Below are positions 13,192 through 58,817 of a stretch of DNA of 64,000 nucleotides, piece after piece. The DNA is from TPA_inf: Saccharomyces (taxonomy: Eukaryota): the NCBI GenBank assembly GCA_000146045.2, contig BK006945.2, positions 928,001 to 992,000 on the forward strand. The letters are read 5' to 3'. Below the pieces are notes generated by a model. That model saw only the letters and a program-made list of their open reading frames with translations. It ran no database searches and was not told the origin of the DNA. Every line of letters starts with the position of its first letter. Positions within the stretch are counted from its first letter, which is position 1. Position numbers and translations under genes: made by a program.

Positions 13192-13523
13192 TGTTGGAAT
13201 AAAAATCAACTATCATCTACTAACTAGTATTTACGTTACTAGTATATTATCATATACGGTGTTAGAAGATGACGCAAATGATGAGAAATAGTCATCTAAA
13301 TTAGTGGAAGCTGAAACGCAAGGATTGATAATGTAATAGGATCAATGAATATTAACATATAAAATGATGATAATAATATTTATAGAATTGTGTAGAATTG
13401 CAGATTCCCTTTTATGGATTCCTAAATCCTCGAGGAGAACTTCTAGTATATCTACATACCTAATATTATTGCCTTATTAAAAATGGAATCCCAACAATTA
13501 CATCAAAATCCACATTCTCTTCA
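13192..13523 (+). repeat. Ty2 5' LTR (delta), 332 bp
   Basis: TGTTGG...CA termini. It contains the TYA ATG (13483) and is identical to the 3' LTR. Confidence 0.9.
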
Positions 13524-14799
13524 TGGTAGCGCCTATGCTTCGGTTACTTCTAAGGAAGTCCCATCAAATCAAGATCCGTTAGCCGTTTCAGCTTCCAATT
13601 TACCGGAATTTGATAGAGATTCCACTAAGGTTAATTCTCAACAAGAGACAACACCTGGGACATCAGCTGTTCCAGAGAACCATCATCATGTCTCTCCTCA
13701 ACCTGCTTCAGTACCACCTCCACAGAATGGACAGTACCAACAGCACGGCATGATGACCCCAAACAAAGCTATGGCCTCTAACTGGGCACATTACCAACAA
13801 CCATCTATGATGACGTGTTCACATTATCAAACGTCACCTGCGTATTATCAACCGGACCCACACTATCCGTTGCCACAGTATATCCCACCACTGAGTACTT
13901 CCTCACCTGATCCAATCGATTTAAAAAATCAACACTCTGAAATACCTCAAGCTAAGACAAAGGTGGGAAATAACGTCTTACCACCACACACTTTAACATC
14001 AGAAGAAAACTTTTCTACATGGGTTAAATTTTACATCAGATTTTTGAAGAACTCTAATCTCGGTGACATCATTCCAAATGACCAGGGTGAAATCAAAAGA
14101 CAAATGACTTATGAAGAACATGCGTATATATACAATACCTTCCAAGCATTTGCCCCATTTCATTTATTGCCAACATGGGTAAAACAAATTTTAGAAATTA
14201 ATTATGCTGACATCCTTACAGTCCTTTGTAAAAGTGTGTCCAAAATGCAAACTAACAATCAAGAATTAAAGGATTGGATAGCTCTTGCCAACCTTGAGTA
14301 CGACGGAAGTACATCTGCTGATACATTTGAAATTACAGTCAGTACGATCATTCAGAGGCTAAAAGAAAACAATATCAATGTTAGCGACAGATTGGCCTGT
14401 CAACTAATACTTAAAGGTCTATCCGGTGACTTCAAATACCTACGTAATCAATATCGTACCAAAACGAACATGAAACTTTCCCAATTATTCGCTGAAATTC
14501 AATTAATATATGACGAAAATAAAATCATGAATCTAAATAAACCGTCCCAATACAAACAACACAGCGAATACAAAAATGTTTCTCGCACATCTCCAAACAC
14601 GACTAACACAAAGGTTACAACTCGTAATTATCATAGAACAAATAGTTCAAAACCAAGAGCAGCAAAAGCTCACAATATTGCTACATCTAGTAAATTCTCA
14701 AGGGTGAACAATGATCACATTAATGAATCAACCGTTTCATCACAATACTTAAGCGATGACAACGAACTTAGTCTTAGGCCAGCAACAGAAAGAATCTAA
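13483..14799 (+). CDS. Ty2 Gag (TYA), 438 aa
   Basis: ORF starting inside the 5' LTR, 438 aa, Ty2-type capsid protein. Confidence 0.9.
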
Positions 14800-17700
14800 G
14801 CCAACACACACAATAGACTCGAATGACGAACTACCTGATCACCTTCTTATTGATTCAGGAGCTTCGCAAACGCTTGTCAGATCAGCCCATTATTTACACC
14901 ATGCAACACCCAATTCTGAAATAAACATAGTCGATGCTCAAAAACAAGACATTCCTATAAATGCCATTGGTAATCTTCACTTCAACTTTCAGAACGGCAC
15001 CAAAACATCAATAAAAGCACTACACACACCAAACATAGCCTATGATCTATTAAGTTTGAGTGAGCTGGCTAACCAAAATATTACTGCCTGCTTTACCAGA
15101 AACACTTTAGAAAGATCGGATGGTACAGTACTAGCTCCCATAGTCAAACATGGAGACTTTTACTGGTTATCTAAAAAATACCTAATTCCTTCGCACATTT
15201 CAAAGCTAACAATAAACAACGTCAACAAAAGCAAAAGCGTAAATAAATATCCATATCCGTTAATACATCGAATGCTTGGACATGCTAACTTCCGAAGTAT
15301 TCAGAAGTCTCTTAAGAAGAATGCAGTTACATATTTGAAGGAATCGGATATTGAATGGTCTAACGCTAGCACATATCAATGTCCTGACTGTCTAATCGGC
15401 AAAAGCACGAAACATAGACATGTCAAAGGATCACGACTAAAGTACCAAGAATCATATGAGCCTTTTCAGTACTTGCATACCGATATATTTGGTCCTGTAC
15501 ATCACTTACCGAAAAGTGCACCTTCTTACTTTATATCGTTTACAGATGAGAAAACCAGATTCCAATGGGTGTACCCATTACACGACCGTCGTGAAGAATC
15601 TATCCTCAATGTTTTTACATCGATATTAGCATTTATTAAGAACCAATTCAATGCTCGCGTTCTAGTTATCCAGATGGATCGTGGCTCCGAGTACACTAAC
15701 AAAACTCTTCATAAGTTCTTTACGAACAGAGGTATTACTGCATGCTATACAACCACGGCAGATTCTAGAGCACACGGTGTCGCTGAACGATTAAATCGTA
15801 CTTTATTAAACGATTGTCGCACACTGCTTCATTGCAGTGGTCTACCAAATCATCTATGGTTCTCAGCAGTCGAATTTTCTACTATAATCAGAAATTCATT
15901 AGTCTCACCAAAAAACGATAAATCTGCAAGACAACATGCAGGTTTAGCTGGACTGGACATTACTACTATACTACCTTTCGGTCAACCGGTTATAGTTAAC
16001 AACCATAATCCCGACTCGAAAATACATCCTCGTGGCATTCCAGGTTACGCCTTACATCCGTCACGAAACTCTTATGGCTATATTATCTATCTTCCATCAT
16101 TAAAAAAGACAGTAGATACTACCAATTACGTTATATTACAAGACAACCAATCCAAATTGGACCAATTCAATTATGATACACTCACCTTTGATGATGATCT
16201 CAATCGTTTAACAGCCCATAACCAATCTTTTATTGAACAAAATGAAACAGAGCAGTCATATGATCAAAATACAGAATCTGATCATGACTATCAATCGGAG
16301 ATTGAAATAAACTCTGATCCTCTAGTGAACGACTTCTCGTCCCAATCAATGAACCCCTTACAATTAGACCACGAACCAGTCCAAAAAGTACGTGCACCAA
16401 AAGAAGTTGATGCCGACATATCTGAATACAATATTCTTCCATCTCCTGTACGATCTCGTACACCCCATATCATTAATAAAGAGAGTACCGAAATGGGTGG
16501 TACCATTGAATCAGATACTACTTCACCTAGACACTCGTCTACCTTCACTGCACGAAACCAAAAGCGACCTGGTAGTCCCAATGATATGATTGATTTGACC
16601 TCACAGGATAGAGTTAATTATGGACTTGAAAACATCAAAACTACACGTTTGGGTGGTACGGAGGAACCATATATTCAACGAAATAGTGATACAAATATCA
16701 AATACAGGACTACAAATAGTACGCCCTCAATAGATGACCGTTCGTCCAACAGTGAATCCACTACTCCCATCATCTCCATAGAAACAAAGGCTGTATGTGA
16801 TAATACACCCTCCATTGATACGGATCCGCCAGAATATCGATCTTCTGACCATGCGACTCCTAATATAATGCCTGACAAATCCTCAAAAAATGTTACGGCT
16901 GATTCTATTCTTGACGACCTCCCACTTCCTGACTTAACCCATAAATCTCCTACGGACACTTCTGATGTTTCAAAAGATATTCCACACATACACTCTCGTC
17001 AGACTAATTCCAGTTTGGGTGGTATGGATGATTCTAATGTTCTGACTACTACCAAAAGTAAGAAAAGATCATTAGAAGATAATGAAACTGAAATTGAGGT
17101 ATCCCGAGACACATGGAATAATAAGAATATGAGAAGTCTGGAACCACCAAGATCGAAGAAACGCATAAATTTAATTGCAGCAATAAAAGGAGTGAAATCG
17201 ATCAAACCAGTTCGAACGACCTTAAGATATGATGAAGCAATTACATATAATAAAGACAACAAAGAAAAAGACAGATATGTTGAAGCTTATCATAAAGAAA
17301 TTAGCCAACTATTGAAAATGAACACTTGGGATACAAACAAATATTATGATAGAAATGACATAGATCCTAAAAAAGTAATAAACTCAATGTTTATATTTAA
17401 CAAGAAACGTGATGGTACACACAAAGCTAGATTTGTTGCAAGAGGCGACATTCAACACCCCGATACATATGATTCTGATATGCAATCCAATACCGTACAT
17501 CACTATGCACTGATGACGTCACTGTCAATCGCATTAGACAACGACTATTATATCACACAGCTGGACATATCCTCTGCTTACTTATATGCTGATATCAAAG
17601 AAGAATTATACATAAGACCTCCACCACATTTAGGTTTGAATGATAAATTACTACGTTTGAGAAAATCACTCTATGGTTTGAAACAAAGTGGTGCAAACTG

Positions 17701-18796
17701 GTATGAAACCATTAAATCATATTTAATAAATTGTTGCGACATGCAAGAAGTTCGCGGATGGTCATGCGTATTTAAGAATAGTCAAGTAACAATTTGCTTA
17801 TTCGTTGATGATATGATATTATTCAGCAAAGACTTAAATGCAAATAAGAAAATCATAACAACACTCAAGAAACAATACGATACAAAGATAATAAATCTGG
17901 GTGAAAGAGATAACGAAATTCAGTACGACATACTTGGATTAGAGATCAAATATCAAAGAAGCAAGTACATGAAATTAGGTATGGAAAAATCCTTGACAGA
18001 AAAATTACCCAAACTAAACGTACCTTTGAACCCAAAAGGAAAGAAACTTAGAGCTCCAGGTCAACCAGGTCATTATATAGACCAGGATGAACTAGAAATA
18101 GATGAAGATGAATACAAAGAGAAGGTACATGAAATGCAAAAGTTGATTGGTCTAGCTTCATATGTTGGATATAAATTTAGATTTGACTTACTATACTACA
18201 TCAACACACTTGCTCAACATATACTATTCCCCTCTAGACAAGTTTTAGACATGACATATGAGTTAATACAATTCATGTGGGACACTAGAGATAAACAATT
18301 AATATGGCACAAAAACAAACCTACCAAGCCAGATAATAAACTAGTCGCAATAAGCGATGCTTCATATGGTAACCAACCATATTACAAGTCACAAATTGGT
18401 AACATTTTCCTACTCAACGGAAAAGTGATTGGAGGAAAGTCGACAAAGGCTTCGTTAACATGCACTTCAACTACAGAAGCAGAAATACACGCAGTCAGTG
18501 AAGCTATACCGCTATTGAATAACCTCAGTCACCTTGTGCAAGAACTTAACAAGAAACCAATTATTAAAGGCTTACTTACTGATAGTAGATCAACGATCAG
18601 TATAATTAAGTCTACAAATGAAGAGAAATTTAGAAACAGATTTTTTGGCACAAAGGCAATGAGACTTAGAGATGAAGTATCAGGTAATAATTTATACGTA
18701 TACTACATCGAGACCAAGAAGAACATTGCTGATGTGATGACAAAACCTCTTCCGATAAAAACATTTAAACTATTAACAAACAAATGGATTCATTAG
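14756..18796 (+). CDS. Ty2 Pol (TYB: protease, integrase, reverse transcriptase, RNase H), expressed as a Gag-Pol fusion via +1 frameshift at CTTAGGC (14773..14779)
   Basis: 1346-aa +1-frame ORF with integrase zinc motif ([11 protein letters not shown]...CPDCLIGK), DDE integrase core, RT motif (FVDDMILFS) and RNase H (AISDASYG...TEAEIHA). Confidence 0.9.
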
Positions 18797-18818
18797 ATCT
18801 ATTACATTATGGGTGGTA

Positions 18819-19150
18819 TGTTGGAATAAAAATCAACTATCATCTACTAACTAGTATTTACGTTACTAGTATATTATCATATACGGTGTTAGAAGATGAC
18901 GCAAATGATGAGAAATAGTCATCTAAATTAGTGGAAGCTGAAACGCAAGGATTGATAATGTAATAGGATCAATGAATATTAACATATAAAATGATGATAA
19001 TAATATTTATAGAATTGTGTAGAATTGCAGATTCCCTTTTATGGATTCCTAAATCCTCGAGGAGAACTTCTAGTATATCTACATACCTAATATTATTGCC
19101 TTATTAAAAATGGAATCCCAACAATTACATCAAAATCCACATTCTCTTCA
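18819..19150 (+). repeat. Ty2 3' LTR (delta), 332 bp
   Basis: Identical to 13192..13523 and preceded by the polypurine tract. Confidence 0.9.
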
Positions 19151-34971: not shown

Positions 34972-35055
34972 TGAAGGATGCGAGGTTCGAACTCGCGCGG
35001 ACAACCGTCCAACAGATCTTAAGTCTGCCGCCTTAGACCACTCGGCCAACCCTCC
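34972..35055 (-). tRNA. tL(UAA): tRNA-Leu (anticodon UAA), intronless, 84 nt
   Basis: The reverse complement of 34972..35055 reads GGAGGGTTGGCCGAGTGGTCTAAGGCGGCAGACTTAAGATCTG...GAGTTCGAACCTCGCATCCTTCA. It has A/B boxes, a long variable arm, anticodon loop CTTAAGA, and a downstream oligo-T Pol III terminator (rc of 34961..34970). Confidence 0.85.
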
Positions 35056-35182: not shown

Positions 35183-35541
35183 TGTTGGTAAGCCTCTGAA
35201 AAATTTATCAAATACTAGTACAATTGTTTACCAACATCATTTTCGTTGCTAGAAAATTACTATACACCGTTAAGAAAAGACATAAATCATGAGACTAATA
35301 GAACAACACTAGGGATTAGCCAATTTAATGGGAGCTGAAATGCAGGGATTAATTATGCAATTACAAAATGAATGGTATCGTTTGAAATGAAAGAAGAAAC
35401 ACTAATATTATAACATAGAAATATCGATTTCTTCCTGCGAATTCCCATGTCCTCGTTGAGAACTTCTAATATGTTTTGTATGCCTAATATTATAGCTTTA
35501 CAAAAAAATAGAATCTCAACAATTATCCCACAATTCACTCA
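35183..35541 (+). repeat. Diverged solo delta (Ty1/Ty2 LTR) 127 bp upstream of tL(UAA)
   Basis: Starts TGTTGG and ends ...CACTCA. Internal blocks (GGAGCTGAAATGCAGGGATTAATTATG..., ...CCTCGTTGAGAACTTCTAATATG...) align with delta consensus with many substitutions. No intact TSD. Confidence 0.65.
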
Positions 35542-35652
35542 TGTCATGCTGCCTCTCGCGTATTTTTTCTTGAAACCGATGCTAGTTTAGTTGTCTTTCG
35601 GCATCAGCTCTAATTTTTTCAAGAATAGTATCTACAGAGTCAAATTTCATCA

Positions 35653-45394: not shown

Positions 45395-47521
45395 ATGGAG
45401 GATTCGGACTCCAACACAGATAAAAAGTTCTTTTTCAAAAAAAGAAGAATCGATTCCTATAATTATAGCGATGAGGAAGATAATAATTCAAGCATGAATA
45501 GTGACATGACATACACTAATGATGCCTTGAAAACTAGTAGCGGCAATGCCCCAACGATCTCAAAATTAACGAAGACATATGGTATTGGTGCGAAGTTACT
45601 TTCGAGTATGGGATATGTTGCGGGAAAAGGCCTTGGGAAGGATGGTTCTGGTATAACTACACCAATAGAAACCCAAAGCCGACCTATGCACAATGCAGGT
45701 CTAGGAATGTTTTCAAATACCAACTCCAGTAACTATCACAGTGAAAATGAGGATTACTTGAGCTCTGAGGATGAGGTGGTTGAAGGTATAGAACAAGTCA
45801 AATTCAATAAAACCTCCACGGAGGTTTTAGGCGAAGCGTTGTTAAATGATAGTGGTGATATGACTATAGTGCGAACACTGAGAGAATTGAGGTTAGCAGG
45901 GGTACAATTACCAGAGAGTATCCTAAAAGAATTAGACCCTTTAAATGCAGTACCAAAGCCGAAAAAAGATGTTGTTGTGGAGATATTGCAAGAGCTGCTG
46001 GGTATTGAAAAAAGTTTGGAAGCTATTCGTCAGCGCACCTCTCCGTTAGAAGTGCAAGTCAAAGAATATTATGGACAAGAGAGGCTTCTTTCTGAATTGG
46101 AGGTTACTTTGAGGGACGAAAGCAAGCATGTTTCCCTGTATGATAAGATTGGTGCTATTTTAAAATTGTCCGACGACGAGCTCATAGATAGGCTAACGTC
46201 CTGCTTATTGAGAAAAGAATTACTAATAGAATTTGATTTGGATCATTTAGAAAAGCCAAACGATATACTTGATGAGTTAACGCAAATTATAGAACTACTC
46301 GCATATAGAATGGATACAACTTCGAAATTTTTGAACAGGACACAAACAACAATCTTTAAAGTTATATATCCCAAACTCAAAAAATTTTGGGAAGGGTTTG
46401 ATATGACTAAATCAAAAATCGACAGCGCTATCACCCTATTACTGGATTTCCAACAAGTGCTAAGTTTTATCGGGTGTAAAGAGCATATCATGGAGGAATT
46501 CGTCTATCCAAAGCTATTACAGGAATTAGATAATTGGGAACTTCACGATGAAGTAGACCATGTTTCGCCAAGAATATGGGTCTTGGATTTTATGGTTTTA
46601 ATTGACGATAAGATCAAAGACACAATTGTGGACAAGATTGAAGCAAAATTTTTTGCTTATTGTAAAAATTGGTACCATAGGGAATCATTTTGTATCACTA
46701 ATTCTGATATTATATTTATCAAAGAACTTATCTGCGAACGAAGATATTACAAAATTTTATGTAAAGAGTTTCTTCCTAAATTCCTGGACGAGCTGTGGGA
46801 AAGACATAATGACCCCATCTACGAGTTAGAGGATTGGAAGGAAAAACAGGAATGGAAAGAAAAAGATTCTGGATTTTTCTATTTTATGAAAAAACTGAGA
46901 AGTTATACCCATTATTTTCATCCAAAACAGTATGAATTGATGATGCGGGGAACCTTTAATAATATAAACAAAATACTCTATCAATGGCATCTTTATAGTA
47001 CAGTGGAAGACTTACACAAGTCAAAGTGGTGGCTTAATTGGCTGATGAATACGGTATTTGAGCACTCTTTACCAACAGAAATAGAACTATCGGAGATCAG
47101 AAAAAGCTATAATATATTCGCTATGTCTCATAGGTACCACCTTGATAAATCTACATTAGATGAAGATTTCGATTTGAGACAGGGTTTACGAAACTTAATG
47201 GAAACACAAGTGATCGACGATATTAGTCAAAGCGAACAAGAACCTACCTATACTGTACAAAATATTCCGCTTGGAAAAGTTAGCAGCTCTTTCAAGGATG
47301 TGGTAGAAGACTACTGCCTGGAAAAAGGGTACTTGATCAGCAAAATACCAAATAGGTACACTCAACTGCCATATGGAAGAGACCAAGATTGTATAGTTCC
47401 TTTATTTGAGATCCGAAACGGGAAGAAAAAAATGGAAGTTGCTTTGAAACATGATATTCTTTGGGTGGAGGATTCCAGTGGGACCTTTAAGCCAATTTAT
47501 TTATGGGCCCTTGACCTCTAG
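45395..47521 (+). CDS. SPP382: Spliceosome disassembly factor Ntr1/Spp382 (YLR424W), 708 aa
   Basis: G-patch motif (TYGIGAKLLSSMGYVAGKGLGKDGSGITTPI) at about aa 60-105. 708 aa. Confidence 0.85.
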   Translation: MEDSDSNTDKKFFFKKRRIDSYNYSDEEDNNSSMNSDMTYTNDALKTSSGNAPTISKLTKTYGIGAKLLSSMGYVAGKGLGKDGSGITTPIETQSRPMHNAGLGMFSNTNSSNYHSENEDYLSSEDEVVEGIEQVKFNKTSTEVLGEALLNDSGDMTIVRTLRELRLAGVQLPESILKELDPLNAVPKPKKDVVVEILQELLGIEKSLEAIRQRTSPLEVQVKEYYGQERLLSELEVTLRDESKHVSLYDKIGAILKLSDDELIDRLTSCLLRKELLIEFDLDHLEKPNDILDELTQIIELLAYRMDTTSKFLNRTQTTIFKVIYPKLKKFWEGFDMTKSKIDSAITLLLDFQQVLSFIGCKEHIMEEFVYPKLLQELDNWELHDEVDHVSPRIWVLDFMVLIDDKIKDTIVDKIEAKFFAYCKNWYHRESFCITNSDIIFIKELICERRYYKILCKEFLPKFLDELWERHNDPIYELEDWKEKQEWKEKDSGFFYFMKKLRSYTHYFHPKQYELMMRGTFNNINKILYQWHLYSTVEDLHKSKWWLNWLMNTVFEHSLPTEIELSEIRKSYNIFAMSHRYHLDKSTLDEDFDLRQGLRNLMETQVIDDISQSEQEPTYTVQNIPLGKVSSSFKDVVEDYCLEKGYLISKIPNRYTQLPYGRDQDCIVPLFEIRNGKKKMEVALKHDILWVEDSSGTFKPIYLWALDL

Positions 47522-47982
47522 AAAGTACCTATAAAAGAGGTGAGATAGGCACGATTTATATATTATTGTCGAAAAACAAAATTGATTAGATTACTAAATA
47601 AATAATAATTGCATTACCATTTTTAGACAATGGATTAATTTAAAGTGGAGTCTATTAATTCCCCTTATTTGATAGTTGTTGGTATTTTGCCCTTGAAATG
47701 TTTCCAAAATTTATTGTTTAAACTTTTATACTTCGCTAGACTCTCGTAGTTAGACTGTTAAGAGTTGTGGCAGAAGGAAACGAGTTTCGGATGGGATCAA
47801 AGGACCTTTTTTATATCAAGATCAAATGGAGCTGTTATTTTCCAAGAAAGACAGAAGAAAGCCCGAATGTGGCTAAGTAGTGAGCCTAATCAAGTAGTCA
47901 GCTTCACTTGATATTAGTTTATACGATTACTATTTTAATGGAGTTTTTAGCTCACTAAATAATTTAATGCAAAAAAAATAAA

Positions 47983-48056
47983 CGACCCCAGTGAGGGTTG
48001 AACTCACGATCTTGCGATTAACAGTCGCACGCCTTAACCAACTTGGCCATGGAGTC
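47983..48056 (-). tRNA. tN(GUU): tRNA-Asn (anticodon GUU), 74 nt
   Basis: The reverse complement reads GACTCCATGGCCAAGTTGGTTAAGGCGTGCGACTGTTAATCGCAAGATCGTGAGTTCAACCCTCACTGGGGTCG. It has a cloverleaf with anticodon loop CTGTTAA and an oligo-T terminator downstream (rc of 47971..47979). Confidence 0.9.
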
Positions 48057-48256
48057 TTTTATTTCCGATATCTGCTGAGTTAAAAATTATATAATATTAT
48101 TGATAGCTTCTATCATTGACCTTCAATTACTTATGTTGGAATATCAAAAATGTGAGATTTTTTTTTTCAAATAGTTTTGAAGAATCAGCGAATAATTTGA
48201 TACTTTTTGGGATTCTTGTTAGTAACGGCTATTGTTGGAGTTAAACTTCTTTAAAT

Positions 48257-48588
48257 TTGTAGAGTATGTGGATTTTGATGTAATTGTTGGGATTCCATTG
48301 TGATTAAGGCTATAATATTAGGTATGTAGATATACTAGAAGTTCTCCTCGAGGATTTAGGAATCCATAAAAGGGAATCTGCAATTCTACACAATTCTATA
48401 AATATTATTATCATCATTTTATATGTTAATATTCATTGATCCTATTACATTATCAATCCTTGCGTTTCAGCTTCCACTAATTTAGATGACTATTTCTCAT
48501 CATTTGCGTCATCTTCTAACACCGTATATGATAATATACTAGTAACGTAAATACTAGTTAGTAGATGATAGTTGATTTTTATTCCAAC
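48257..48588 (-). repeat. Ty2 copy 2 3' LTR (delta), 332 bp
   Basis: rc reads TGTTGGAATAAAAATC...CCACATACTCTACA. It differs from its partner LTR at 3 positions. Confidence 0.85.
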
Positions 48589-48611
48589 ATACCACCCATA
48601 ATGTAATAGAT

Positions 48612-51600
48612 CTAATGAATCCATTTGTTAGTTAATAGTTTAAATGTTTTTATCGGAAGAGGTTTTGTCATCACATCAGCAATGTTCTTCTTGGTCTCGA
48701 TGTAGTATACGTATAAATTATTACCTGATACTTCATCTCTAAGTCTCATTGCCTTTGTGCCAAAAAATCTGTTTCTAAATTTCTCTTCATTTATTTCTAG
48801 TTCATCCTGGTCTATATAATGACCTGGTTGACCTGGAGCTCTAAGTTTCTTTCCTTTTGGGTTCAAAGGTACGTTTAGTTTGGGTAATTTTTCTGTCAAG
48901 GATTTTTCCATACCTAATTTCATGTACTTGCTTCTTTGATATTTGATCTCTAATCCAAGTATGTCGTACTGAATTTCGTTATCACCTTCACCCAGATTTA
49001 TTATCTTTGTATCGTATTGTTTCTTGAGTGTTGTTATGATTTTCTTATTTGCATTTAAGTCTTTGCTGAATAATATCATATCATCAACGAATAAGCAAAT
49101 TGTTACTTGACTATTCTTAAATACGCATGACCATCCGCGAACTTCTTGCATGTCGCAACAATTTATTAAATATGATTTAATGGTTTCATACCAGTTTGCA
49201 CCACTTTGTTTCAAACCATAGAGTGATTTTCTCAAACGTAGTAACTTATCATTCAAACCTAAATGTGGTGGAGGTCTTATGTATAATTCTTCTTTGATAT
49301 CAGCATATAAGTAAGCAGAGGATATGTCCAGCTGTGTGATATAATAGTCATTGTCTAATGCGATTGACAATGACGTCATCAGTGCATAGTGATGTACGGT
49401 ATTGGATTGCATATCAGAATCATATGTATCGGGGTGTTGAATGTCGCTTCTTGCAACAAATCTAGCTTTGTGTGTACCATCACGTTTCTTGTTAAATATA
49501 AACATTGAGTTTATTACTTTTTTAGGATCTATGTCATTTCTATCATAATATTTGTTTGTATCCCAAGTGTTCATTTTCAATAGTTGGCTAATTTCTTTAT
49601 GATAAGCTTCAACATATCTGTCTTTTTCTTTGTTGTCTTTATTATATGTAATTGCTTCATCATATCTTAAGGTCGTTCGAACTGGTTTGATCGATTTCAC
49701 TCCTTTTATTGCTGCAATTAAATTTATGCGTTTCTTCGATCTTGGTGGTTCCAGACTTCTCATATTCTTATTATTCCATGTGTCTCGGGATACCTCAATT
49801 TCAGTTTCATTATCTTCTAATGATCTTTTCTTACTTTTGGTAGTAGTCAGAACATTAGAATCATCCATACCACCCAAACTGGAATTAGTCTGACGAGAGT
49901 GTATGTGTGGAATATCTTTTGAAACATCAGAAGTGTCCGTAGGAGATTTATGGGTTAAGTCAGGAAGTGGGAGGTCGTCAAGAATAGAATCAGCCGTAAC
50001 ATTTTTTGAGGATTTGTCAGGCATTATATTAGGAGTCGCATGGTCAGAAGATCGATATTCTGGCGGATCCGTATCAATGGAGGGTGTATTATCACATACA
50101 GCCTTTGTTTCTATGGAGATGATGGGAGTAGTGGATTCACTGTTGGACGAACGGTCATCTATTGAGGGCGTACTATTTGTAGTCCTGTATTTGATATTTG
50201 TATCACTATTTCGTTGAATATATGGTTCCTCCGTACCACCCAAACGTGTAGTTTTGATGTTTTCAAGTCCATAATTAACTCTATCCTGTGAGGTCAAATC
50301 AATCATCTCATTGGTACTACCAGGTCGGTTTTGGTTTCGTGCAGTGAAGGTAGACGAGTGTCTAGGTGAAGTAGTATCTGATTCAACGGTACCACCCATT
50401 TCGGTACTCTCTTTATTAATGATATGGGGTGTACGAGATCGTATAGTAGATGGAAGAATATTGTATTCAGATATGTCGGCATCAACTTCTTTTGGTGCAC
50501 GTACTTTTTGGACTGGTTCCTTGTCTAATTGTAAAGGGTTTATTGATTGGGACGAGAAGTCGTTCACTAGAGGATCAGAGTTTATTTCAATCTCCGATTG
50601 ATAGTCATGATCAGATTCTTTATTTTGATCATATGACTGCTCTGTTTCATTTTGTTCAATAAAAGATTGGTTATGGGCTGTTAAACGATTGAGATCATCA
50701 TCAAAAGTGAGTGTATCGTAGTCGAACTGGTCCAATTTCGTTTGCTTGTTTTGTAATATAACGTAATTGGTAGTATCTACTGTCTTTTTTAAGGATGGAA
50801 GATAGATAATATAGCCATAAGAGTTTCGTGATGGATGTAAGGCGTAACCTGGAATGCCACGAGGATGTATTTTCGAGTCGGGATTATGGTTGTTAACTAT
50901 AACCGGTTGACCGAAAGGTAGTATAGTAGTAATGTCCAGTCCAGCTAAACCTGCATGTTGTCTTGCAGATTTATCGTTTTTTGGTGAGACTAATGAATTT
51001 CTGATTATAGTAGAAAATTCGACTGCTGAGAACCATAGATGATTTGGTAGACCACTGCAATGAAGCAGTGTGCGACAATCGTTTAATAAAGTACGATTTA
51101 ATCGTTCAGCGACACCGTGTGCTCTAGAATCTGCCGTGGTTGTATAGCATGCAGTAATACCTCTGTTCGTAAAGAACTTATGAAGAGTTTTGTTAGTGTA
51201 CTCGGAGCCACGATCCATCTGGATAACTAGAACGCGAGCATTGAATTGGTTCTTAATAAATGCTAATATCGATGTAAAAACATTGAGGATAGATTCTTCA
51301 CGACGGTCGTGTAATGGGTACACCCATTGGAATCTGGTTTTCTCATCTGTAAACGATATAAAGTAAGAAGGTGCACTTTTCGGTAAGTGATGTACAGGAC
51401 CAAATATATCGGTATGCAAGTACTGAAAAGGCTCATATGATTCTTGGTACTTTAGTCGTGATCCTTTGACATGCCTATGTTTCGTGCTTTTGCCGATTAG
51501 ACAGTCAGGACATTGATATGTGCTAGCGTTAGACCATTCAATATCCGATTCTTTCAAATATGTAACTGCATTCTTCTTAAGAGACTTCTGAATACTTCGG

Positions 51601-52136
51601 AAGTTAGCATGTCCAAGCATTCGATGTATTAACGGATATGGATATTTATTTACGCTTTTGCTTTTGTTGACGTTGTTTATTGTTAGCTTTGAAATGTGCG
51701 AAGGAATTAGGTATTTTTTAGATAACCAGTAAAAGTCTCCATGTTTGACTATGGGAGCTAGTACTGTACCATCCGATCTTTCTAAAGTGTTTCTGGTAAA
51801 GCAGGCAGTAATATTTTGGTTAGCCAGCTCACTCAAACTTAATAGATCATAGGCTATGTTTGGTGTGTGTAGTGCTTTTATTGATGTTTTGGTGCCGTTC
51901 TGAAAGTTGAAGTGAAGATTACCAATGGCATTTATAGGAATGTCTTGTTTTTGAGCATCGACTATGTTTATTTCAGAATTGGGTGTTGCATGGTGTAAAT
52001 AATGGGCTGATCTGACAAGCGTTTGCGAAGCTCCTGAATCAATAAGAAGGTGATCAGGTAGTTCGTCATTCGAGTCTATTGTGCGTGTTGGCTTAGATTC
52101 TTTCTGTTGCTGGCCTAAGACTAAGTTCGTTGTCAT
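48612..52136 (-). CDS. Ty2 Pol (TYB) of copy 2, 1174 aa. In-frame deletion of 172 codons removes the RNase H catalytic core.
   Basis: Collinear with copy 1 TYB except ...DQDELEI[172 aa missing]NEEKFRN.... The protease, integrase and RT regions are intact. Confidence 0.85.
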
Positions 52137-53409
52137 CGCTTAAGTATTGTGATGAAACGGTTGATTCATTAATGTGATCATTGTTCACCCTTGAGAATTT
52201 ACTGGATGTAGCAATATTGTGAGCTTTTGCTGCTCTTGGTTTTGAACTATTTGTTCTATGATAATTACGAGTTGTAACCTTCGTGTTAGTCGTGTTTGGA
52301 GATGTGCGAGAAACATTTTTGTATTCGCTGTGTTGTTTGTATTGGGACGGTTTATTTAGATTCATGATTTTATTTTCGTCATATATTAATTGAATTTCAG
52401 CGAATAATTGGGAAAGTTTCATGTTCGTTTTGGTACGATATTGATTACGTAGGTATTTGAAATCACCGGATAGACCTTTAAGTATTAGTTGACAGGCCAA
52501 TCTGTCGCTAACATTGATATTGTTTTCTTTTAGCCTTTGAATGATCGTGCTGACTGTAATTTCAAATGTATCAGCAGATGTACTTCCGTTGTACTCAAGG
52601 TTGGCAAGAGCTATCCAATCTTTTAATTCTTGATTGTTAGTTTGCATTTTGGACACACTTTTACAAAGGACAGTAAGGATGTCAGAATAATTAATTTCTA
52701 AAATTTGTTTTACCCATGTTGGCAATAAATGAAATGGGGCAAATGCTTGGAAGGTATTGTATATATACGCATGTTCTTCATAAGTCATTTGTCTTTTGAT
52801 TTCACCCTGGTCATTTGGAATAATGTCACCGAGATTAGAGTTCTTCAAAAATCTGATGTAAAATTTAACCCATGTAGAAAAGTTTTCTTCTGATGTTAAA
52901 GTGTGTGGTGGTAAGACATTATTTCTCACCTTTGTCTTAGCTTGAGGTACTTCAGAGTGTTGATCCTGTGAATCGATTGGATCAGGTGAGGAAGTACTCA
53001 GCGGTGGGATATACTGTGGCAGCGGATAGTGTGGGTCCGGTTGATAATACGCAGGTGACGTTTGATAATGTGAACACGTCATCATAGATGGTTGTTGGTA
53101 ATGTGCCCAGTTAGAAGCCATAGCTTTGTTTGGGGTCATCATGCCGTGCTGTTGGTACTGTCCATTCTGTGGAGGTGGTACTGAAGCAGGTTGAGGAGAG
53201 ACATGATGATGGTTCTCTGGAACAGCTGATGTCCCAGGTGTTGTCTCTTCTTGAGAATTAACCTTAGTGGAATCTCTATCAAATTCCGGTAAATTGGAAG
53301 CTGAAACGGCTAACGGATCTTGATTTGATGGGACTTCCTTAGAAGTAACCGAAGCATAGGCGCTACCATGTAGAGAATGTGGATTTTGATGTAATTGTTG
53401 GGATTCCAT
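52093..53409 (-). CDS. Ty2 Gag (TYA) of copy 2, 438 aa
   Basis: About 98 percent identical to copy 1 TYA. Confidence 0.9.
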
Positions 53410-53700
53410 TGTGATTAAGGCTATAATATTAGGTATGTAGATATACTAGAAGTTCTCCTCAAGGATTTAGGAATCCATAAAAGGGAATCTGCAATTCTAC
53501 ACAATTCTATAAATATTATTATCATCGTTTTATATGTTAATATTCATTGATCCTATTACATTATCAATCCTTGCGTTTCAGCTTCCACTAATTTAGATGA
53601 CTATTTCTCATCATTTGCGTCATCTTCTAACACCGTATATGATAATATACTAGTAACGTAAATACTAGTTAGTAGATGATAGTTGATTTTTATTCCAACA
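53369..53700 (-). repeat. Ty2 copy 2 5' LTR (delta), 332 bp
   Basis: rc reads TGTTGGAATAAAAATC...CCACATTCTCTACA, followed by the PBS. It contains the TYA ATG. Confidence 0.85.
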
Positions 53701-54893
53701 GGTTCACACGAAGATTGAAAGTGTGGCCACGCTAATTTAGTTTATTAGGGAAATGCTCCTGGTCAGTTCTAATTCACCCAACGTAGCGCGGAATATTTTA
53801 AAGTTAATATAGTATTTCGATATGACAAGCACCTCTAAACAAAAGGTTATTTTCGCTTTTGTTCATTGAGCGTGTACTTCAAGCCTGATCCTGCTTTTTC
53901 TTCTGATTTGATCTGATTCGATTAAGCAAGCGGTACTACCCTAAAACCGCCATCTGTTGTAATATAGTAACGTCGCAATAAACCTGTCATATAATTAGCA
54001 GCTAATCCTTATATTCCATCTCCTCAATTTGTGATATTTATCGTATATAATTCCCATTTCAGACCGTCATTTAGTAGTAGGCATCTAACTATGGAACGGC
54101 TTTACCCGATCTTGGTATGTATGCCATAATGTACTACCGCTATCGATTTACCTTAACCCTAACGAGTGTCTCTAGCCAGTATTTTAAACTTCCATATCAC
54201 AACTAATGTTGAAGATTGTATAATAAAAACATCAAGCTATTTAATAGATGCGATTAATCTCCTAATCGAAAACAGTTTGTTCGGTGTCCAAATACTGTTT
54301 TAGTGGACTATGATAAACGTTATAACAGCTATTTTGACTAAAACAACCGTAAATTTACACAGATAGGTGTTCACAGTAATTTTTTGGGGAGTTAGGTCGA
54401 AATCTTTTCCAAAACCAGTCATGCAAAGGAAATGCGTCAACTTTTGGGGACTTTTCCCCTACTCAAACACAGTTAGTCAACATTTAAAGGTTGTGTCTTT
54501 ACTTAAGAGAAAATTAACTGAGCTTCGGTCATACATACGTAATTTCGCTGCTTCCAGTCGAGCAGTTGGTGCGCTATAATCATTTGATGTTTTTAGCTTA
54601 CGGCTTCTTAAGATTTTCTATTGTTCATACTGACTCGTCGCATAGGCCGCAATATAAATCATTTAGAGAAAACGTTAACACATCGTTTAGGTAAACAACC
54701 CCTAGAGAGGATGATCAGTACGCAATATAACTGTTCAAAATCCATTTCTTGCATCAATATTTTATTCAACTATTATTTCTGGAGGTTTTAGTGGTTCTGT
54801 ATACCCCCTCCAGCCACTGTTATGAACAATTAATTGATACTACTTCGAATATAAACATTAAAACAAAAAACTTATTGAGTGCAGCAAGTTAAC

Positions 54894-57800
54894 ATGTATC
54901 GATATAATAGAAGTTCCCCTTTTGAACGAACACCAGAAAAACGAGTAAGCCGTCAAGAAAGCCAACGAAAGAGCATCGAATTGCCCAAACTGCCACCATT
55001 GAATACGAGGAACTCCTTTTTGGATGATTCTGATAACGGAACAGATAATATCTCAATTGGCTGGACACCAATCAGTGACACCCAGCAATTCCAAAGCCCG
55101 GTCCCTCAGGCTTTTACCTTTACATCAAAACATAGTGCAAGGGGAAACGGTACTAGCTCTTCAGAATCCACACCCAAATCGACAAAGTACGTCAAAGAAA
55201 GACGACCACCACCACCGCCACCCCTTTTGTATTCCACTGAATCAATACGGATAGACTCACCCATGGTATCTCCCAGTTCTCAGTCCCGGGAAAGATCACC
55301 TAATAAACTATCCTTTATAGGAAACTCAGAGGAACGACATCACATGGAATACATATCTAACCATTCCAGGATCTTAAAATCACCATTTGCGAACGGATTT
55401 AGTCCAAATTCCCCTAAATCTCCAAGAGATAGTAGCAAACAGCAGGCTCACTTCTCTGATGAATCAGATCTACGGTGTCATGAAAGAGAAAAAGCTTTAC
55501 CCCCAATTCCTTTCACTACTACTCTTCTGCTATCTCCTTTTGATGATGAAGACTCAGAATTTTTTACGAAACCACCACCGCCTCTATCAACATCTAGAAA
55601 CGTAAGTGGGAATAGCCGAGTATCAGAAGCCCTAGAAAGTGTTTATTCTGACTCAGATTATACTTTTAATAACTCAAATGCCAGGCAAAGTAGTTTTAAC
55701 TCTTTACTAGGAGCCAAGCCATTAGAATTAGCACCAAGCATTACTGCACCGACACAACCATTTTCAATTCAATCTATCGATGAGCACAAGCTTTATCAAT
55801 GTGATAATGTTTACAAACTTTCTGCTATTTATGAGTGGATTTTGAAAGTTTATTTTGAATGGTTTAATGAATGTGTCTTCACGAAAATCGATCTTTTCCA
55901 AATTGTTCAATTACTTTTAGAGTTTCAAATGCCTACAAATTTCGATCAAGATACGATAGACTCAAATGTGGATAATATTATGGCTTCGTTTATTTCCCAG
56001 AAAGCAGTAAGATTCGATATCATTAACGATGAAGAGGTAGCCGTAGTTGTGGGAGGGCTGGATATTACTGGTGTTTTCACCGAACTACTACCGTGCTATT
56101 CATTCATCGATAATACTTATGGATCTACAAACTCCCTGATTTGTTATTCCAACGTTTGCACACATGGCCAAAGCTCTGGCTTCAGAAAAGAAATAAAACT
56201 TTCCGAAATCATAAATAAATCAGTTGGACTTTGGACAGAATACTGGCACTTGACTCCAGATGATTTAGCAGAAATTAATCCCCGTGAAGTACAAAGACAA
56301 AGCTTTATATTTGACTTAATTATTTTAGAAGAAAGATCCTTAAACATGGCTACTGCCGCGGTAGAAATCTATGGGAAACGGTTTGACAAATCCCTACTTC
56401 CAGATGAGCCTGAGTTCAAGGCATTGGCATTTGATATCTTCGAACCTCTAATACAATTACATACCGAATTTCTTTTGACGCCAATATTTTGGAAATTAAA
56501 AACGAGAGGTAAGTTTATTGATGGCGTTGGAAAAATCTATTCAAAATGGTGTGGTGAAGCCAAGAATATATATTTGAATTACGCGAAAGCTATGGCAACG
56601 GTACACGAAATCATAATGTGGGAGAAGAAAAACAAGACGAAATTTGTAACATGGCTTAAGGAGATTGATAACTCGGTTGAAATTACAAGATCGAAGATGT
56701 ATCATGATGTTATATTCTTTGGGGGGTTTTTCAAATCTTTACAAAACATGCCCGTAACTCTGCGCTCAATTTTGAAGAACACGGATCCTTCCATGGAGGA
56801 TTATGAATACCTGAAAATAGTAATTAAGGAAGTAGAAAAGTTGAACTTTGAAGTTAATCAGGTACATGGATTAGCAATTGACCATAGGAAACTAGTAAGG
56901 TTTTCGAAACAATTAGTATTAAGTACTAATAGTAGTAATGCAACAAGCTATGTGAACGTCGGTGGTAGTACTAACGCAAATGACGATGATGCAATTCAGG
57001 ATAAACTAGCTCTTGGTTTAACTTATCCGGAAAGGAAGTTAGTACTATCTGGCACTGTTTATAAAAAGAGGGATTTATGGCTGGACCCAACCCCAGTGTA
57101 TATCGCATTATTGGACAATTGCTTACTGATTACAGAGGAAATAAGTAAAGGAGAAACTCAAAAATATAAGCTTATTGAAAGACCTATCCCAATAGATTAT
57201 TTAAGTCTCGAGAAAAGGAAAATTCCAGGAACAAGTAAACAGCCTCTGAGAAACTACTCTCAGAAAGAACATAAATCCCCAATGCATAATTTTTCGACAC
57301 CGATTAACTCCATGAGACCTCTGCTTAAAAGTTCTGGAAATCACATGTCAACAGCGTATGGAGATAGAAAGACTAGTAATACTGAAATTTCTAACGCGAA
57401 TCCAAACACAGACGAGTTCTCATTTAAGATCAGAAATACAGCCACAGGTGAATCGTTCAAATTTTTTACAGAAAGTGCAGAAGTACTCAACCAATGGATT
57501 GATGCTATCATGGAATCTTTTAAAAGAAATGCAGAAAATCATGATTTAAATGCCTTTGAATTTACAGTGTTGAGCTCTGAGTTCGCATACTTCGACAAGG
57601 ATGCACCGGTGAATCTACCTGTAGCTCCGGAAGGATCAGAAATTGATGTAGCACTCAAAGCTTACGCTCAAAAAGCAAACAAAGATTCATGTTCATGGAG
57701 TAAGACAACACGGATTCTTTGTTGTGAAGATGTTAAATTCGAGGGCAGAATTTACCTATTTGTGGCTACAACAGACGGTATCTATGTGAAATATAGAGAC

Positions 57801-58817
57801 GATTATGGTAGTGGTTTCGTTAAAATATTAGAATTAAACGACGTCAAAAGAATGGAAGCCAATGTTAAGTTGGGGCTCTTGTTTGTATTGGATAACAGAA
57901 AGTTGTGCTATTTTAATATCTCAACGGTAGTGAGCCGTTACCTAGCGCAAGGAAACACTCTAGATGAAAACTGCATTGTGGGAACAGTAATCAGAGATAA
58001 GGTGAGATTCTTCAAAATTGCTGATGATTTTGGTAACTCAAAACATTTATTTTTTGAAAGAAAGGGGAAGATAGTTATATTAACACCAGAATTTGATCAA
58101 TTGACAAACCAAGTAAAATATTTCAAATTTTACAAAGAGTATAAGCTCCCAAGTTCAAGTAATAACATTCTGAATAACGAAATTGAGGATATTGCCATAT
58201 TCAGGAAAAGTTTTGCTGTGTGTACAAAGAAAACAGTCATACTTTATCAAGATTCATTCGAGGATAACGGAATAGTCTTACCATCTTTTTTGAATGATAA
58301 AGATATGATGGCACACTTGAGGCATCCACATTTGAATAGCTTACCGTTCAAAAGTGCTACAGACTCCAAGAAACGCCCCTCCATAGAATCTCTCACTGAA
58401 GAAGCAAAAAAGGATATCGCCACTTGCAAAGCTATACCGGTCAATTTTTTTCAAATATCACAATCTAGTTTTTTTGCCTTGGTTTATGATGAAGCCGTAG
58501 TGAAAATAAACTGCTACGGTGAGATGTCTGATTGGAGAAAGGATATTCTCTTACTTGATTTTTGTTGTACCGGCGCGAGCTTCCATGGTAATCATTTGAT
58601 TCTCGTTGGCGACAATTTGATACAGATTTACGACTTAAAAAATGTTGAGCAGAACCTAGGCGAATTGGTTCCCGTCCAGATCATAAAAGGAAAGAAGATA
58701 AAGCTGGCTAGTTCAGAAAGGAGAGAGAAAACAATTCTTGTGTTAAGTCATCCAAATATACTTAATAGACAATTATTAGTCGCGTGCAATCCTGTAGCAA
58801 TGGCAGATCATCAATAA
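54894..58817 (+). CDS. TUS1: Rho1 guanine-nucleotide exchange factor Tus1 (YLR425W), 1307 aa
   Basis: Ser-rich N-terminus, a central DH-PH module and a C-terminal CNH domain. The track ORF starts at GTG 54879; the true ATG is at 54894 (MYRYNRSSPFERTPE...). Confidence 0.85.
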   Translation: MYRYNRSSPFERTPEKRVSRQESQRKSIELPKLPPLNTRNSFLDDSDNGTDNISIGWTPISDTQQFQSPVPQAFTFTSKHSARGNGTSSSESTPKSTKYVKERRPPPPPPLLYSTESIRIDSPMVSPSSQSRERSPNKLSFIGNSEERHHMEYISNHSRILKSPFANGFSPNSPKSPRDSSKQQAHFSDESDLRCHEREKALPPIPFTTTLLLSPFDDEDSEFFTKPPPPLSTSRNVSGNSRVSEALESVYSDSDYTFNNSNARQSSFNSLLGAKPLELAPSITAPTQPFSIQSIDEHKLYQCDNVYKLSAIYEWILKVYFEWFNECVFTKIDLFQIVQLLLEFQMPTNFDQDTIDSNVDNIMASFISQKAVRFDIINDEEVAVVVGGLDITGVFTELLPCYSFIDNTYGSTNSLICYSNVCTHGQSSGFRKEIKLSEIINKSVGLWTEYWHLTPDDLAEINPREVQRQSFIFDLIILEERSLNMATAAVEIYGKRFDKSLLPDEPEFKALAFDIFEPLIQLHTEFLLTPIFWKLKTRGKFIDGVGKIYSKWCGEAKNIYLNYAKAMATVHEIIMWEKKNKTKFVTWLKEIDNSVEITRSKMYHDVIFFGGFFKSLQNMPVTLRSILKNTDPSMEDYEYLKIVIKEVEKLNFEVNQVHGLAIDHRKLVRFSKQLVLSTNSSNATSYVNVGGSTNANDDDAIQDKLALGLTYPERKLVLSGTVYKKRDLWLDPTPVYIALLDNCLLITEEISKGETQKYKLIERPIPIDYLSLEKRKIPGTSKQPLRNYSQKEHKSPMHNFSTPINSMRPLLKSSGNHMSTAYGDRKTSNTEISNANPNTDEFSFKIRNTATGESFKFFTESAEVLNQWIDAIMESFKRNAENHDLNAFEFTVLSSEFAYFDKDAPVNLPVAPEGSEIDVALKAYAQKANKDSCSWSKTTRILCCEDVKFEGRIYLFVATTDGIYVKYRDDYGSGFVKILELNDVKRMEANVKLGLLFVLDNRKLCYFNISTVVSRYLAQGNTLDENCIVGTVIRDKVRFFKIADDFGNSKHLFFERKGKIVILTPEFDQLTNQVKYFKFYKEYKLPSSSNNILNNEIEDIAIFRKSFAVCTKKTVILYQDSFEDNGIVLPSFLNDKDMMAHLRHPHLNSLPFKSATDSKKRPSIESLTEEAKKDIATCKAIPVNFFQISQSSFFALVYDEAVVKINCYGEMSDWRKDILLLDFCCTGASFHGNHLILVGDNLIQIYDLKNVEQNLGELVPVQIIKGKKIKLASSERREKTILVLSHPNILNRQLLVACNPVAMADHQ

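What the first reader, a model, noticed from the sequence alone, without database searches (positions are those of the whole stretch)
48252..53705. Second Ty2 lacks a target-site duplication and its two LTRs differ, suggesting a recombinant or gene-converted element
The 5 bp flanking the element are AAATT (48252..48256) on one side and GGTTC (53701..53705) on the other, so there is no direct repeat. Copy 1 has a perfect CTTCT. The two 332-bp LTRs of copy 2 also differ at 3 positions (GAGTATG vs GAGAATG, CCTCGAGG vs CCTCAAGG, CATCATTTTA vs CATCGTTTTA). LTRs are identical at insertion, and those of copy 1 still are. Together with the internal deletion, this points to an element reshaped by inter-element recombination or gene conversion, for example an exchange between two nearby Ty insertions in this tRNA-proximal hotspot, rather than a simple primary insertion. 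A delta-like TGTTGGAATA start at 48138 and a TGTTG-initiated segment at 53957 in the flanks may be remnants of older LTRs.
Basis: partly seen in the sequence, partly recalled or inferred. Interest (0 to 1): 0.55.

Follow-up and report, generated by a model that had tools for sequence, protein, structure and literature searches.

The report
Ty2 reshaped by neighbouring solo-LTR crossover
This yeast Ty2 retrotransposon lacks matching flanking repeats because, after a normal insertion, one of its LTRs recombined with an older solo LTR 150 bp away and deleted the 482 bp between them, which is a well-known and ordinary kind of event.

Summary
Its two 332-bp LTRs differ at 3 positions. It carries an in-frame 516-bp deletion.

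Other S. cerevisiae assemblies of the same SPP382-tRNA-Asn-TUS1 interval explain the missing repeat.
- Empty alleles read AAATT, 140 bp, GGTTC.
- Several strains have a solo Ty2 LTR with a perfect GGTTC/GGTTC duplication.
- One assembly (L008/L023) has the identical Ty2 with a perfect AAATT/AAATT duplication, then the 150-bp spacer, then that solo LTR in the same orientation.

The window allele equals that precursor minus exactly 482 bp (one LTR plus the spacer). The cause is a homologous crossover between the Ty2 5' LTR and the neighbouring solo LTR, within LTR positions 1-173 (window 53528-53700).

The three LTR differences and the internal deletion are already in the precursor, so the crossover did not cause them.

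Linking it to the LTR differences and the deletion is not. This is a textbook mechanism acting on what is, by its position, the Ty2 named YLRCTy2-2 in the reference strain (not checked against that record), so interest is low.

The parts
47983..48056 (-). tRNA-Asn(GUU) gene. Its upstream side faces the Ty2, and the AAATT insertion site lies 197-201 bp upstream of its 5' end.
   Evidence: ARAGORN; distances.
48253..48257 (.). AAATT, the surviving left copy of the target-site duplication made by this Ty2 insertion.
   Evidence: In L008/L023 the same 5-mer flanks both ends of the identical element.
48258..48589 (-). 3' LTR of Ty2 copy 2 (332 bp; T174, C240, A325).
48590..48599 (-). Polypurine tract (reverse complement ATGGGTGGTA) abutting the 3' LTR. 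It fixes the LTR boundary.
   Evidence: Read directly from the sequence. The same 10-mer precedes 3' LTRs in other loci.
48612..52136 (-). TYB (pol) reading frame, 1174 aa instead of 1346. It has the Pol_BBD, gag_pre-integrs, rve, SH3_retrovirus and RVT_2 domains. The 516-bp in-frame deletion junction lies between 48792 and 48793. It removes residues 1116-1287 of the copy 1 frame, downstream of RVT_2 in the C-terminal region where RNase H is expected.
52093..53409 (-). TYA (gag) reading frame, 438 aa. The +1 frameshift heptamer CTTAGGC is at 52113-52119 in the TYA/TYB overlap.
   Evidence: (PF01021 TYA, E=8e-204).
53359..53368 (-). Primer-binding site TGGTAGCGCC, immediately 3' of the 5' LTR in element sense. 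It fixes the LTR boundary.
   Evidence: Read directly from the sequence.
53369..53700 (-). 5' LTR (332 bp; C174, T240, T325). This is the recombinant LTR: its inner part comes from the Ty2's own 5' LTR and its outer end from the neighbouring solo LTR.
53528..53700 (-). Interval that must contain the crossover (LTR positions 1-173). Here the Ty2 5' LTR and the solo LTR are identical.
   Evidence: Variant table: the solo LTR has T174/C240 and the window keeps C174/T240.
53701..53705 (.). GGTTC, the surviving right copy of the duplication made by the older insertion (now a solo LTR in other strains).
   Evidence: solo LTRs in L003, L007, L002, L008, L018, L021 and L022 are flanked by GGTTC on both sides.
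13192..19150 (+). Ty2 copy 1, used as the intact reference. It is 5959 bp with identical LTRs and a CTTCT/CTTCT duplication.

Best explanation
Copy 2 is an ordinary Ty2 (Ty1/copia-type LTR retrotransposon). By position and synteny it should be the element named YLRCTy2-2 in the S. cerevisiae reference strain on chromosome XII. I infer this and did not check it against the reference record.

It integrated normally about 200 bp upstream of tRNA-Asn(GUU) and made an AAATT duplication. The chromosome it entered already carried a solo Ty2 LTR in the same orientation, 150 bp further from the tRNA, with its own GGTTC duplication.

Later, homologous recombination occurred between the Ty2 5' LTR and that solo LTR, which are direct repeats. 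The route could have been an intrachromatid pop-out, unequal sister-chromatid exchange or single-strand annealing. The crossover lay within LTR positions 1-173. It deleted 482 bp: one LTR equivalent plus the 150-bp spacer, which holds one AAATT copy, 140 bp of unique DNA with an old delta fragment, and one GGTTC copy. The result is one Ty2 flanked by AAATT on one side and GGTTC on the other.

Shown: the four allele states, the exact 482-bp difference and the crossover interval. Inferred: the direction of change (by parsimony), the molecular route of the deletion, and that the GGTTC insertion came first.

The three LTR differences and the 516-bp deletion in the presumed RNase H region are older than the crossover and independent of it. 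Most likely they are post-insertion substitutions, or for position 174 a short conversion tract, plus a deletion that arose during or after insertion.
For: 1. Locus and synteny. The ATG17-like, G-patch (SPP382/YLR424W) and RhoGEF (TUS1/YLR425W) genes flank the site. Pfam and 23 loci from other assemblies show the same gene order in every strain.

2. Allele series.
- Empty alleles (L004, L005, L009, L010, L016, L020) read ...ctttAAATT, 140 bp, GGTTCacacg...
- Solo-LTR alleles (L003, L007, L018, L022, and also L002/L017 and L021) have a minus-strand Ty2 LTR with GGTTC on both sides.
- L008/L023 has a Ty2 with AAATT on both sides, then the 150-bp spacer (identical to the empty alleles, 0 differences), then the GGTTC-flanked solo LTR.
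- The window, L001/L015 and L011 have AAATT-Ty2-GGTTC.

3. The window and L008 are identical from 47918 to 57040 except for one 482-bp gap. Only one more substitution (at 47917) occurs back to 39302. The Ty2 itself has 0 differences over 5443 bp.

4. The LTR variant table shows that the L008 5' LTR equals the window 5' LTR (C174, T240, T325). The solo LTR is T174, C240, T325, so the exchange lies in positions 1-173.

5. The precursor junction LTR|AAATTATCATTTG occurs only in L008/L023. It cannot be rebuilt from window-type, solo or empty alleles by recombination, which fixes the direction of change.

6. The deletion junction is present in every allele that carries the AAATT insertion.

7. The window-type allele is seen in at least three other assemblies, plus 6-7 similar places that were not shown, so it is not an assembly artefact.
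Against: The precursor allele was retrieved from a single assembly (GCA_029991815.1). The tool reports a second sample with that contig and one further similar place, but I could not inspect them.

The identity of the recombination partner at the time of the event cannot be fixed. It could have been the solo LTR or the 5' LTR of a still full-length element at GGTTC. L006 and L019 have N-gapped Ty sequence at the GGTTC site.

The origin of the three LTR differences is not resolved. 0.9% divergence between the LTRs is high for a polymorphic, apparently young insertion.

I could not retrieve Kim et al. 1998 or the SGD record, so I could not confirm what the reference annotation already says about this element.
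Confidence: 0.92

Rival explanations
1. Same kind of event but a different partner. Two full-length Ty2 elements sat in tandem orientation at AAATT and GGTTC, and the crossover was between their two 5' LTRs. It deleted the spacer and the whole GGTTC element, rather than involving an already formed solo LTR.
For: L006 and L019 show LTR fragments at the GGTTC site interrupted by N-gaps and a scaffolded 527-602-bp Ty internal fragment. This suggests a full-length Ty at GGTTC in some strains.
Against: The only allele that carries both insertions (L008/L023) has a solo LTR at GGTTC. Around the site it differs from the window by one SNP and the 482-bp gap, so the one-step route from that allele is the most economical. 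The L006 and L019 structures come from gapped assemblies, and the internal fragment is in the wrong orientation relative to the LTRs.
Confidence: 0.06
2. Ectopic exchange, or gene conversion with crossover, with a distant Ty2 on the same or another chromosome. This would give an inversion or translocation, so the two flanks of copy 2 would come from different loci. It is the reader's broader reading.
For: Ty elements without matching duplications can arise this way. Ty-mediated translocations involving a chromosome XII Ty2 named YLRCTy2-2 have been produced experimentally (PMC3102749).
Against: Both flanks are collinear with the empty allele and only 140 bp apart there. Gene order is identical in all strains. 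Copy 1, the other Ty2 in the window, has its own intact CTTCT duplication and identical LTRs.
Confidence: 0.01
3. Integrase-independent entry. Ty2 cDNA recombined with the pre-existing solo LTR, so no duplication was ever made.
For: cDNA recombination with resident LTRs is a known minor pathway for Ty1 (my knowledge, not tested here).
Against: That route would leave the element flanked by GGTTC on both sides. Instead the left junction is at AAATT, and the identical element exists with a perfect AAATT/AAATT duplication in L008/L023.
Confidence: 0.01

Closest known systems
Ty2 elements of S. cerevisiae (Ty1/copia, Pseudoviridae); by position this should be YLRCTy2-2 of the reference strain
   Same: 332-bp TG...CA LTRs. 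Primer-binding site TGGTAGCGCC and a polypurine tract. TYA and TYB frames overlapping at CTTAGGC. Domain order integrase before reverse transcriptase. 98.8% identity to the intact copy 1. Insertion about 200 bp upstream of a tRNA gene.
   Different: It lacks a matching 5-bp duplication and 516 bp of pol (the presumed RNase H region), and its LTRs differ at 3 positions.
LTR-LTR homologous recombination: the process that makes solo LTRs, and its inter-element form that makes deletions and rearrangements between neighbouring Ty insertions
   Same: A crossover between directly repeated LTRs deletes everything between them and leaves one hybrid LTR (described generally in PMC3511429, and PMC7175516).
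   Different: The two LTRs belonged to different insertions: a full element and an adjacent solo LTR. So the element survived and only the spacer, one LTR equivalent and the inner duplication copies were lost. The visible mark is a full-length element with mismatched flanking 5-mers.
Ty-mediated gross chromosomal rearrangements (translocations, inversions, segmental duplications)
   Same: They also produce Ty elements whose two flanks come from different insertion events (PMC3102749).
   Different: Here the flanks are 140 bp apart in the ancestral chromosome, and gene order is unchanged.

Membership tests
Ty2 LTR retrotransposon (Ty1/copia type) | Two direct LTRs of about 332 bp beginning TG and ending CA | tested here: met
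   48258-48589 and 53369-53700; each differs from the copy 1 LTR at 6-7 of 332 positions (97.9-98.2% identity).
Ty2 LTR retrotransposon (Ty1/copia type) | Primer-binding site for initiator tRNA-Met next to the 5' LTR, and a polypurine tract next to the 3' LTR | tested here: met
   TGGTAGCGCC at 53359-53368 and GGGTGGTA at 48590-48597, both on the minus strand. That these motifs are the PBS and PPT is from my knowledge of Ty1/Ty2.
Ty2 LTR retrotransposon (Ty1/copia type) | gag (TYA) and pol (TYB) frames joined by a +1 frameshift, with integrase upstream of reverse transcriptase | tested here: met
   PF01021 TYA at E=8e-204. rve at residues 235-335 lies before RVT_2 at residues 872-1046. CTTAGGC is in the overlap at 52113-52119.
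Ty2 LTR retrotransposon (Ty1/copia type) | Complete pol including RNase H (an autonomous element) | tested here: not met
   172 codons are missing downstream of RVT_2 compared with copy 1. No Pfam RNase H model hit either copy, so assigning the missing region to RNase H rests on the known Ty1 domain order.
Ty2 LTR retrotransposon (Ty1/copia type) | 5-bp target-site duplication | tested here: not met
   The window has AAATT versus GGTTC. The feature is met for the same element in the precursor allele L008/L023, which has AAATT on both sides.
Product of inter-element LTR-LTR recombination | Each flank matches one side of a different, independently documented insertion with its own duplication | tested here: met
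   AAATT/AAATT flanks the Ty2 in L008. GGTTC/GGTTC flanks the solo LTR in seven distinct assemblies.
Product of inter-element LTR-LTR recombination | The sequence between the two insertions is missing, and the size difference equals one LTR plus the spacer | tested here: met
   482 = 332 + 150. This is the only difference from L008 across 47918-57040.
Product of inter-element LTR-LTR recombination | A hybrid LTR with a mappable exchange point | tested here: inconclusive
   The partners are identical over positions 1-173, so the hybrid LTR cannot be told from the Ty2's own 5' LTR. Only an interval can be given.
Gene-converted LTR (each LTR closest to a different donor) | Differences between the two LTRs match variants carried by other Ty2 copies | tested here: inconclusive
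   Only position 174 is polymorphic among the other Ty2 LTRs. It is C in L012, in the L002 solo LTR at GAGTT and in the L021 solo LTR at GAACA; it is T in copy 1 and the GGTTC solo LTR. T240 and A325 were seen in no other LTR sampled. The full set of genomic Ty2 LTRs was not available.

The most novel reading that the evidence does not exclude
The 516-bp in-frame deletion in the presumed RNase H region may already have been in the cDNA when the element integrated at AAATT. That would make copy 2 a non-autonomous Ty2 mobilised in trans by other Ty2 or Ty1 proteins. Every allele with the AAATT insertion carries the deletion, and the junction has only 1 nt of exact microhomology beside an 8/9 imperfect repeat, which fits a reverse-transcriptase template switch. 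Separately, the C/T difference at LTR position 174 may be a short conversion tract copied from the adjacent solo LTR.
Probability: 0.3. Interest if true: 0.2.

Novelty: already known. Interest (0 to 1): 0.12.

Why it matters
It matters little beyond bookkeeping. The locus is a clean, fully reconstructed natural example in which all four allele states still segregate among strains: empty, solo LTR, Ty2 plus solo LTR, and recombinant Ty2.

It shows that a full-length Ty with mismatched flanking 5-mers need not signal a large rearrangement. A 482-bp local deletion between neighbouring insertions in a tRNA hotspot is enough.

It is a useful caution for pipelines that date elements from LTR divergence or use target-site duplications to validate insertions. 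Here the LTR divergence is unrelated to the loss of the duplication.

Tried and rejected
- Boundary shift. I checked whether moving the LTR boundaries could produce a matching 5-mer. The primer-binding site and polypurine tract abut the LTRs exactly, so it cannot.
- Copy 1 as recombination partner. Rejected, because it has its own CTTCT duplication and identical LTRs.
- Look-up of the truncated TYB frame, to find the deleted element elsewhere. It is not on record.
- Look-up of the copy 2 TYA. It returned one more window-type allele (L011) and three metagenome scaffolds of other Ty2 copies.
- Two metagenome scans, one for the deletion junction and one for the precursor junction. Both found nothing, which says little because yeast is rare in that collection.
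- Attempts to read Kim et al. 1998 (Genome Res 8:464), by PubMed id and by a PMC id recalled from memory, to see what is already recorded about Ty elements without duplications. Neither id is held.
- BLAST of Ty2 and Ty1-like LTRs against the flanks. Nothing at 53957, and only weak traces at 48134-48232.
- Nearest full-length relative. I compared copy 2 with L012, a metagenome scaffold that may be chimeric, to guess the ancestral LTR state. The result is suggestive only.
Full report
**What is there**

The window is the right arm of S. cerevisiae chromosome XII. Around the finding the order is a DOCK-like gene, an ATG17-like gene, a G-patch gene of 708 aa (45395-47521, SPP382/YLR424W), tRNA-Asn(GUU) (47983-48056, minus strand), the Ty2, a RhoGEF/CNH gene of 1307 aa (54894-58817, TUS1/YLR425W), a short-chain dehydrogenase gene and a RING-finger gene. 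Twenty-three loci fetched from other assemblies share this order. The gene names come from my knowledge and from the paper listings. A chromosome XII right-arm Ty2 named YLRCTy2-2 appears in PMC3102749. That the window's copy 2 is this element is my inference from position.

**Checking the observation**

- Copy 2 occupies 48258-53700 on the minus strand and is 5443 bp long. Its LTRs are 48258-48589 (3' LTR in element sense) and 53369-53700 (5' LTR), each 332 bp and TGTTGG...CA.
- The boundaries do not depend on the flanks. The 5' LTR is followed directly by TGGTAGCGCC (the primer-binding site). The 3' LTR is preceded directly by ...GGGTGGTA (the polypurine tract).
There is no duplication, and no plausible boundary shift creates one.
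- Copy 1 (13192-19150, 5959 bp) has identical LTRs and CTTCT on both sides.
- Compared with copy 1, copy 2 has 66 substitutions and a single 516-bp gap (copy 1 element positions 4909-5424).
- The gap is in frame and removes residues 1116-1287 of the 1346-residue TYB frame. These lie downstream of the RVT_2 domain (872-1046), where RNase H sits in Ty1-type elements. Pfam gave no RNase H hit in either copy, so that assignment is by position.
- The deletion junction has 1 nt of exact microhomology next to an 8/9 imperfect repeat, A[G/A]ATGAAGA.
- TYA (52093-53409) and the shortened TYB (48612-52136) are otherwise open. The CTTAGGC frameshift site is in their overlap.

**What explains the missing duplication**

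I looked up the exact SPP382 and TUS1 proteins in public assemblies with 10-kb flanks. I then mapped Ty2 LTRs in the SPP382-TUS1 intergenic region. Four allele states appear.

1. Empty (L004, L005, L009, L010, L016, L020): ...ctttAAATT, 140 bp, GGTTCacacg... The 140 bp include an old delta fragment (LTR positions 34-108, 80% identity).
2. Solo LTR (L003, L007, L018, L022, and with extra insertions L002/L017 and L021): a minus-strand Ty2 LTR flanked by GGTTC on both sides.
3. Ty2 plus solo LTR (L008 and L023, the same assembly GCA_029991815.1): a Ty2 flanked by AAATT on both sides, then the 150-bp stretch AAATT...GGTTC, then the GGTTC-flanked solo LTR in the same orientation. That stretch is identical to the empty alleles.
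4. The window type (the window, L001/L015, L011, plus 6-7 similar places not shown): AAATT-Ty2-GGTTC.

The window and L008 differ between 47918 and 57040 by nothing except one 482-bp gap. There is one further substitution, at 47917, back to 39302. The 5443-bp Ty2 is identical base for base, including the 516-bp deletion and the three LTR differences.

The arithmetic fits: 482 = 332 (one LTR) + 150 (spacer with one copy of each 5-mer). The window allele is therefore the L008-type allele after a crossover between the Ty2 5' LTR and the neighbouring solo LTR, which are direct repeats.

The direction of change follows from the precursor-specific junction, LTR end|AAATTATCATTTG. It is found only in L008/L023. 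Only an integration at AAATT can make it, and recombination among window-type, solo and empty alleles cannot regenerate it.

The solo LTR carries T174/C240, while the window's 5' LTR keeps C174/T240. The exchange must therefore lie in LTR positions 1-173, which is window 53528-53700, where the two partners are identical.

**What the crossover does not explain**

The three LTR differences and the internal deletion are present unchanged in the allele that still has its AAATT/AAATT duplication. They are older than the crossover and independent of it.

Among the Ty2 LTRs I could sample, position 174 is a shared polymorphism. It is C in L012, in the solo LTR at GAGTT in L002/L017, and in the solo LTR at GAACA in L021. 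It is T in copy 1 and in the GGTTC solo LTR. T240 (5' LTR) and A325 (3' LTR) are unique to this element.

The nearest full-length relative I found is element A of metagenome scaffold L012, which has an identical Gag protein and may be a chimeric assembly. It matches copy 2 over the first 1616 nt except for T240, and it has C174/T325 in its downstream LTR. One reading is therefore one private change in the 5' LTR and two in the 3' LTR. The C-to-T change at 174 could be either a transition or a short conversion tract from a T174 LTR such as the adjacent solo LTR. The data here cannot decide between these.

**Rivals**

- A crossover with the 5' LTR of a still full-length element at GGTTC, rather than with a solo LTR, is possible. 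L006 and L019 have gapped Ty sequence at that site. It is less economical than the one-step route from the L008 type.
- An ectopic exchange with a distant Ty is excluded, because both flanks are collinear with the empty allele and 140 bp apart there.
- Integrase-independent entry of cDNA through the solo LTR would give GGTTC on both sides, which is not seen.
- Assembly artefact is excluded for the window type, since several independent assemblies show it. It is very unlikely for the precursor, because a misjoin would not produce a perfect 5-bp duplication at an exact LTR end.

**Comparison with what is known, and verdict**

The 5-bp duplication is the accepted signature of Ty integration (PMC5555480; PMC10911583). 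LTR-LTR recombination is the accepted source of solo LTRs and of Ty-associated deletions and rearrangements (PMC3511429; PMC7175516; PMC3102749).

From my own knowledge, the 1998 genome-wide Ty survey by Kim et al. already attributed full-length Ty elements without matching duplications to recombination. I could not retrieve that paper to cite it.

This is therefore a known mechanism acting on what is most likely an annotated reference-genome element. What the analysis adds is the exact reconstruction from a surviving precursor allele, and the separation of the crossover from the LTR differences and the deletion. Interest is low.

Noticed in passing
window 13192-19150 and 19253-19978: Ty2 copy 1 ends 102 bp upstream of a 241-aa Ctr-family copper-transporter frame (PF04145, E=6e-38). 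From my knowledge this matches the Ty2 insertion in front of CTR3 described in laboratory strains.
   Followed up: partly
window 35220-35545, upstream of tRNA-Leu(UAA) at 34972-35055 (minus strand): A degenerate delta LTR, 65-72% identical to Ty2 and Ty1-like LTRs over about 320 bp. It is an old solo LTR at a second tRNA gene.
   Followed up: partly
L002/L017 (solo LTR, + strand, GAGTT duplication; window-equivalent site 48238-48242) and L021 8635-8966 (solo LTR, minus strand, GAACA duplication; window-equivalent site 53860-53864): Across strains, four independent Ty2-type LTR insertions lie about 183, 197, 342 and 500 bp upstream of tRNA-Asn in empty-allele coordinates. Their duplications are GAGTT, AAATT, GGTTC and GAACA. 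This is a dense, polymorphic insertion hotspot.
   Followed up: partly
L006 intergenic 883-2208; L019 7495-8807: At the GGTTC site, two gapped assemblies show LTR fragments separated by runs of N and a 527-602-bp Ty internal fragment in the opposite orientation. This is probably an unresolved full-length Ty at that site.
   Followed up: partly
L001 14234-14235, 15098, 17137 (window-equivalent 49627, 50489, 52527): This assembly has four extra bases (2+1+1) and one substitution inside the otherwise identical Ty2. They are either real frameshifts or long-read indel errors.
   Followed up: no
copy 2 element positions 2869-3394 (window about 50307-50832): 18 of the 26 substitutions private to copy 2, compared with copy 1 and the two L012 elements, cluster in about 530 bp of the integrase C-terminal region. 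This looks like a patch from a different Ty lineage rather than scattered mutation.
   Followed up: no
L012 (metagenome scaffold, 12566 bp): Two Ty2 elements lie head to tail sharing one LTR, and the second ends in a Ty1-like LTR (84% identical to the Ty2 LTR). This is either a real tandem Ty array or a repeat-induced assembly loop.
   Followed up: no
window 48134-48143 and 48178-48232: An exact TGTTGGAATA 10-mer lies beside a weak match to the 3' end of a Ty1-like LTR on the opposite strand (72%, E=4e-4). They sit between the tRNA and the Ty2 and may be scraps of older insertions.
   Followed up: partly
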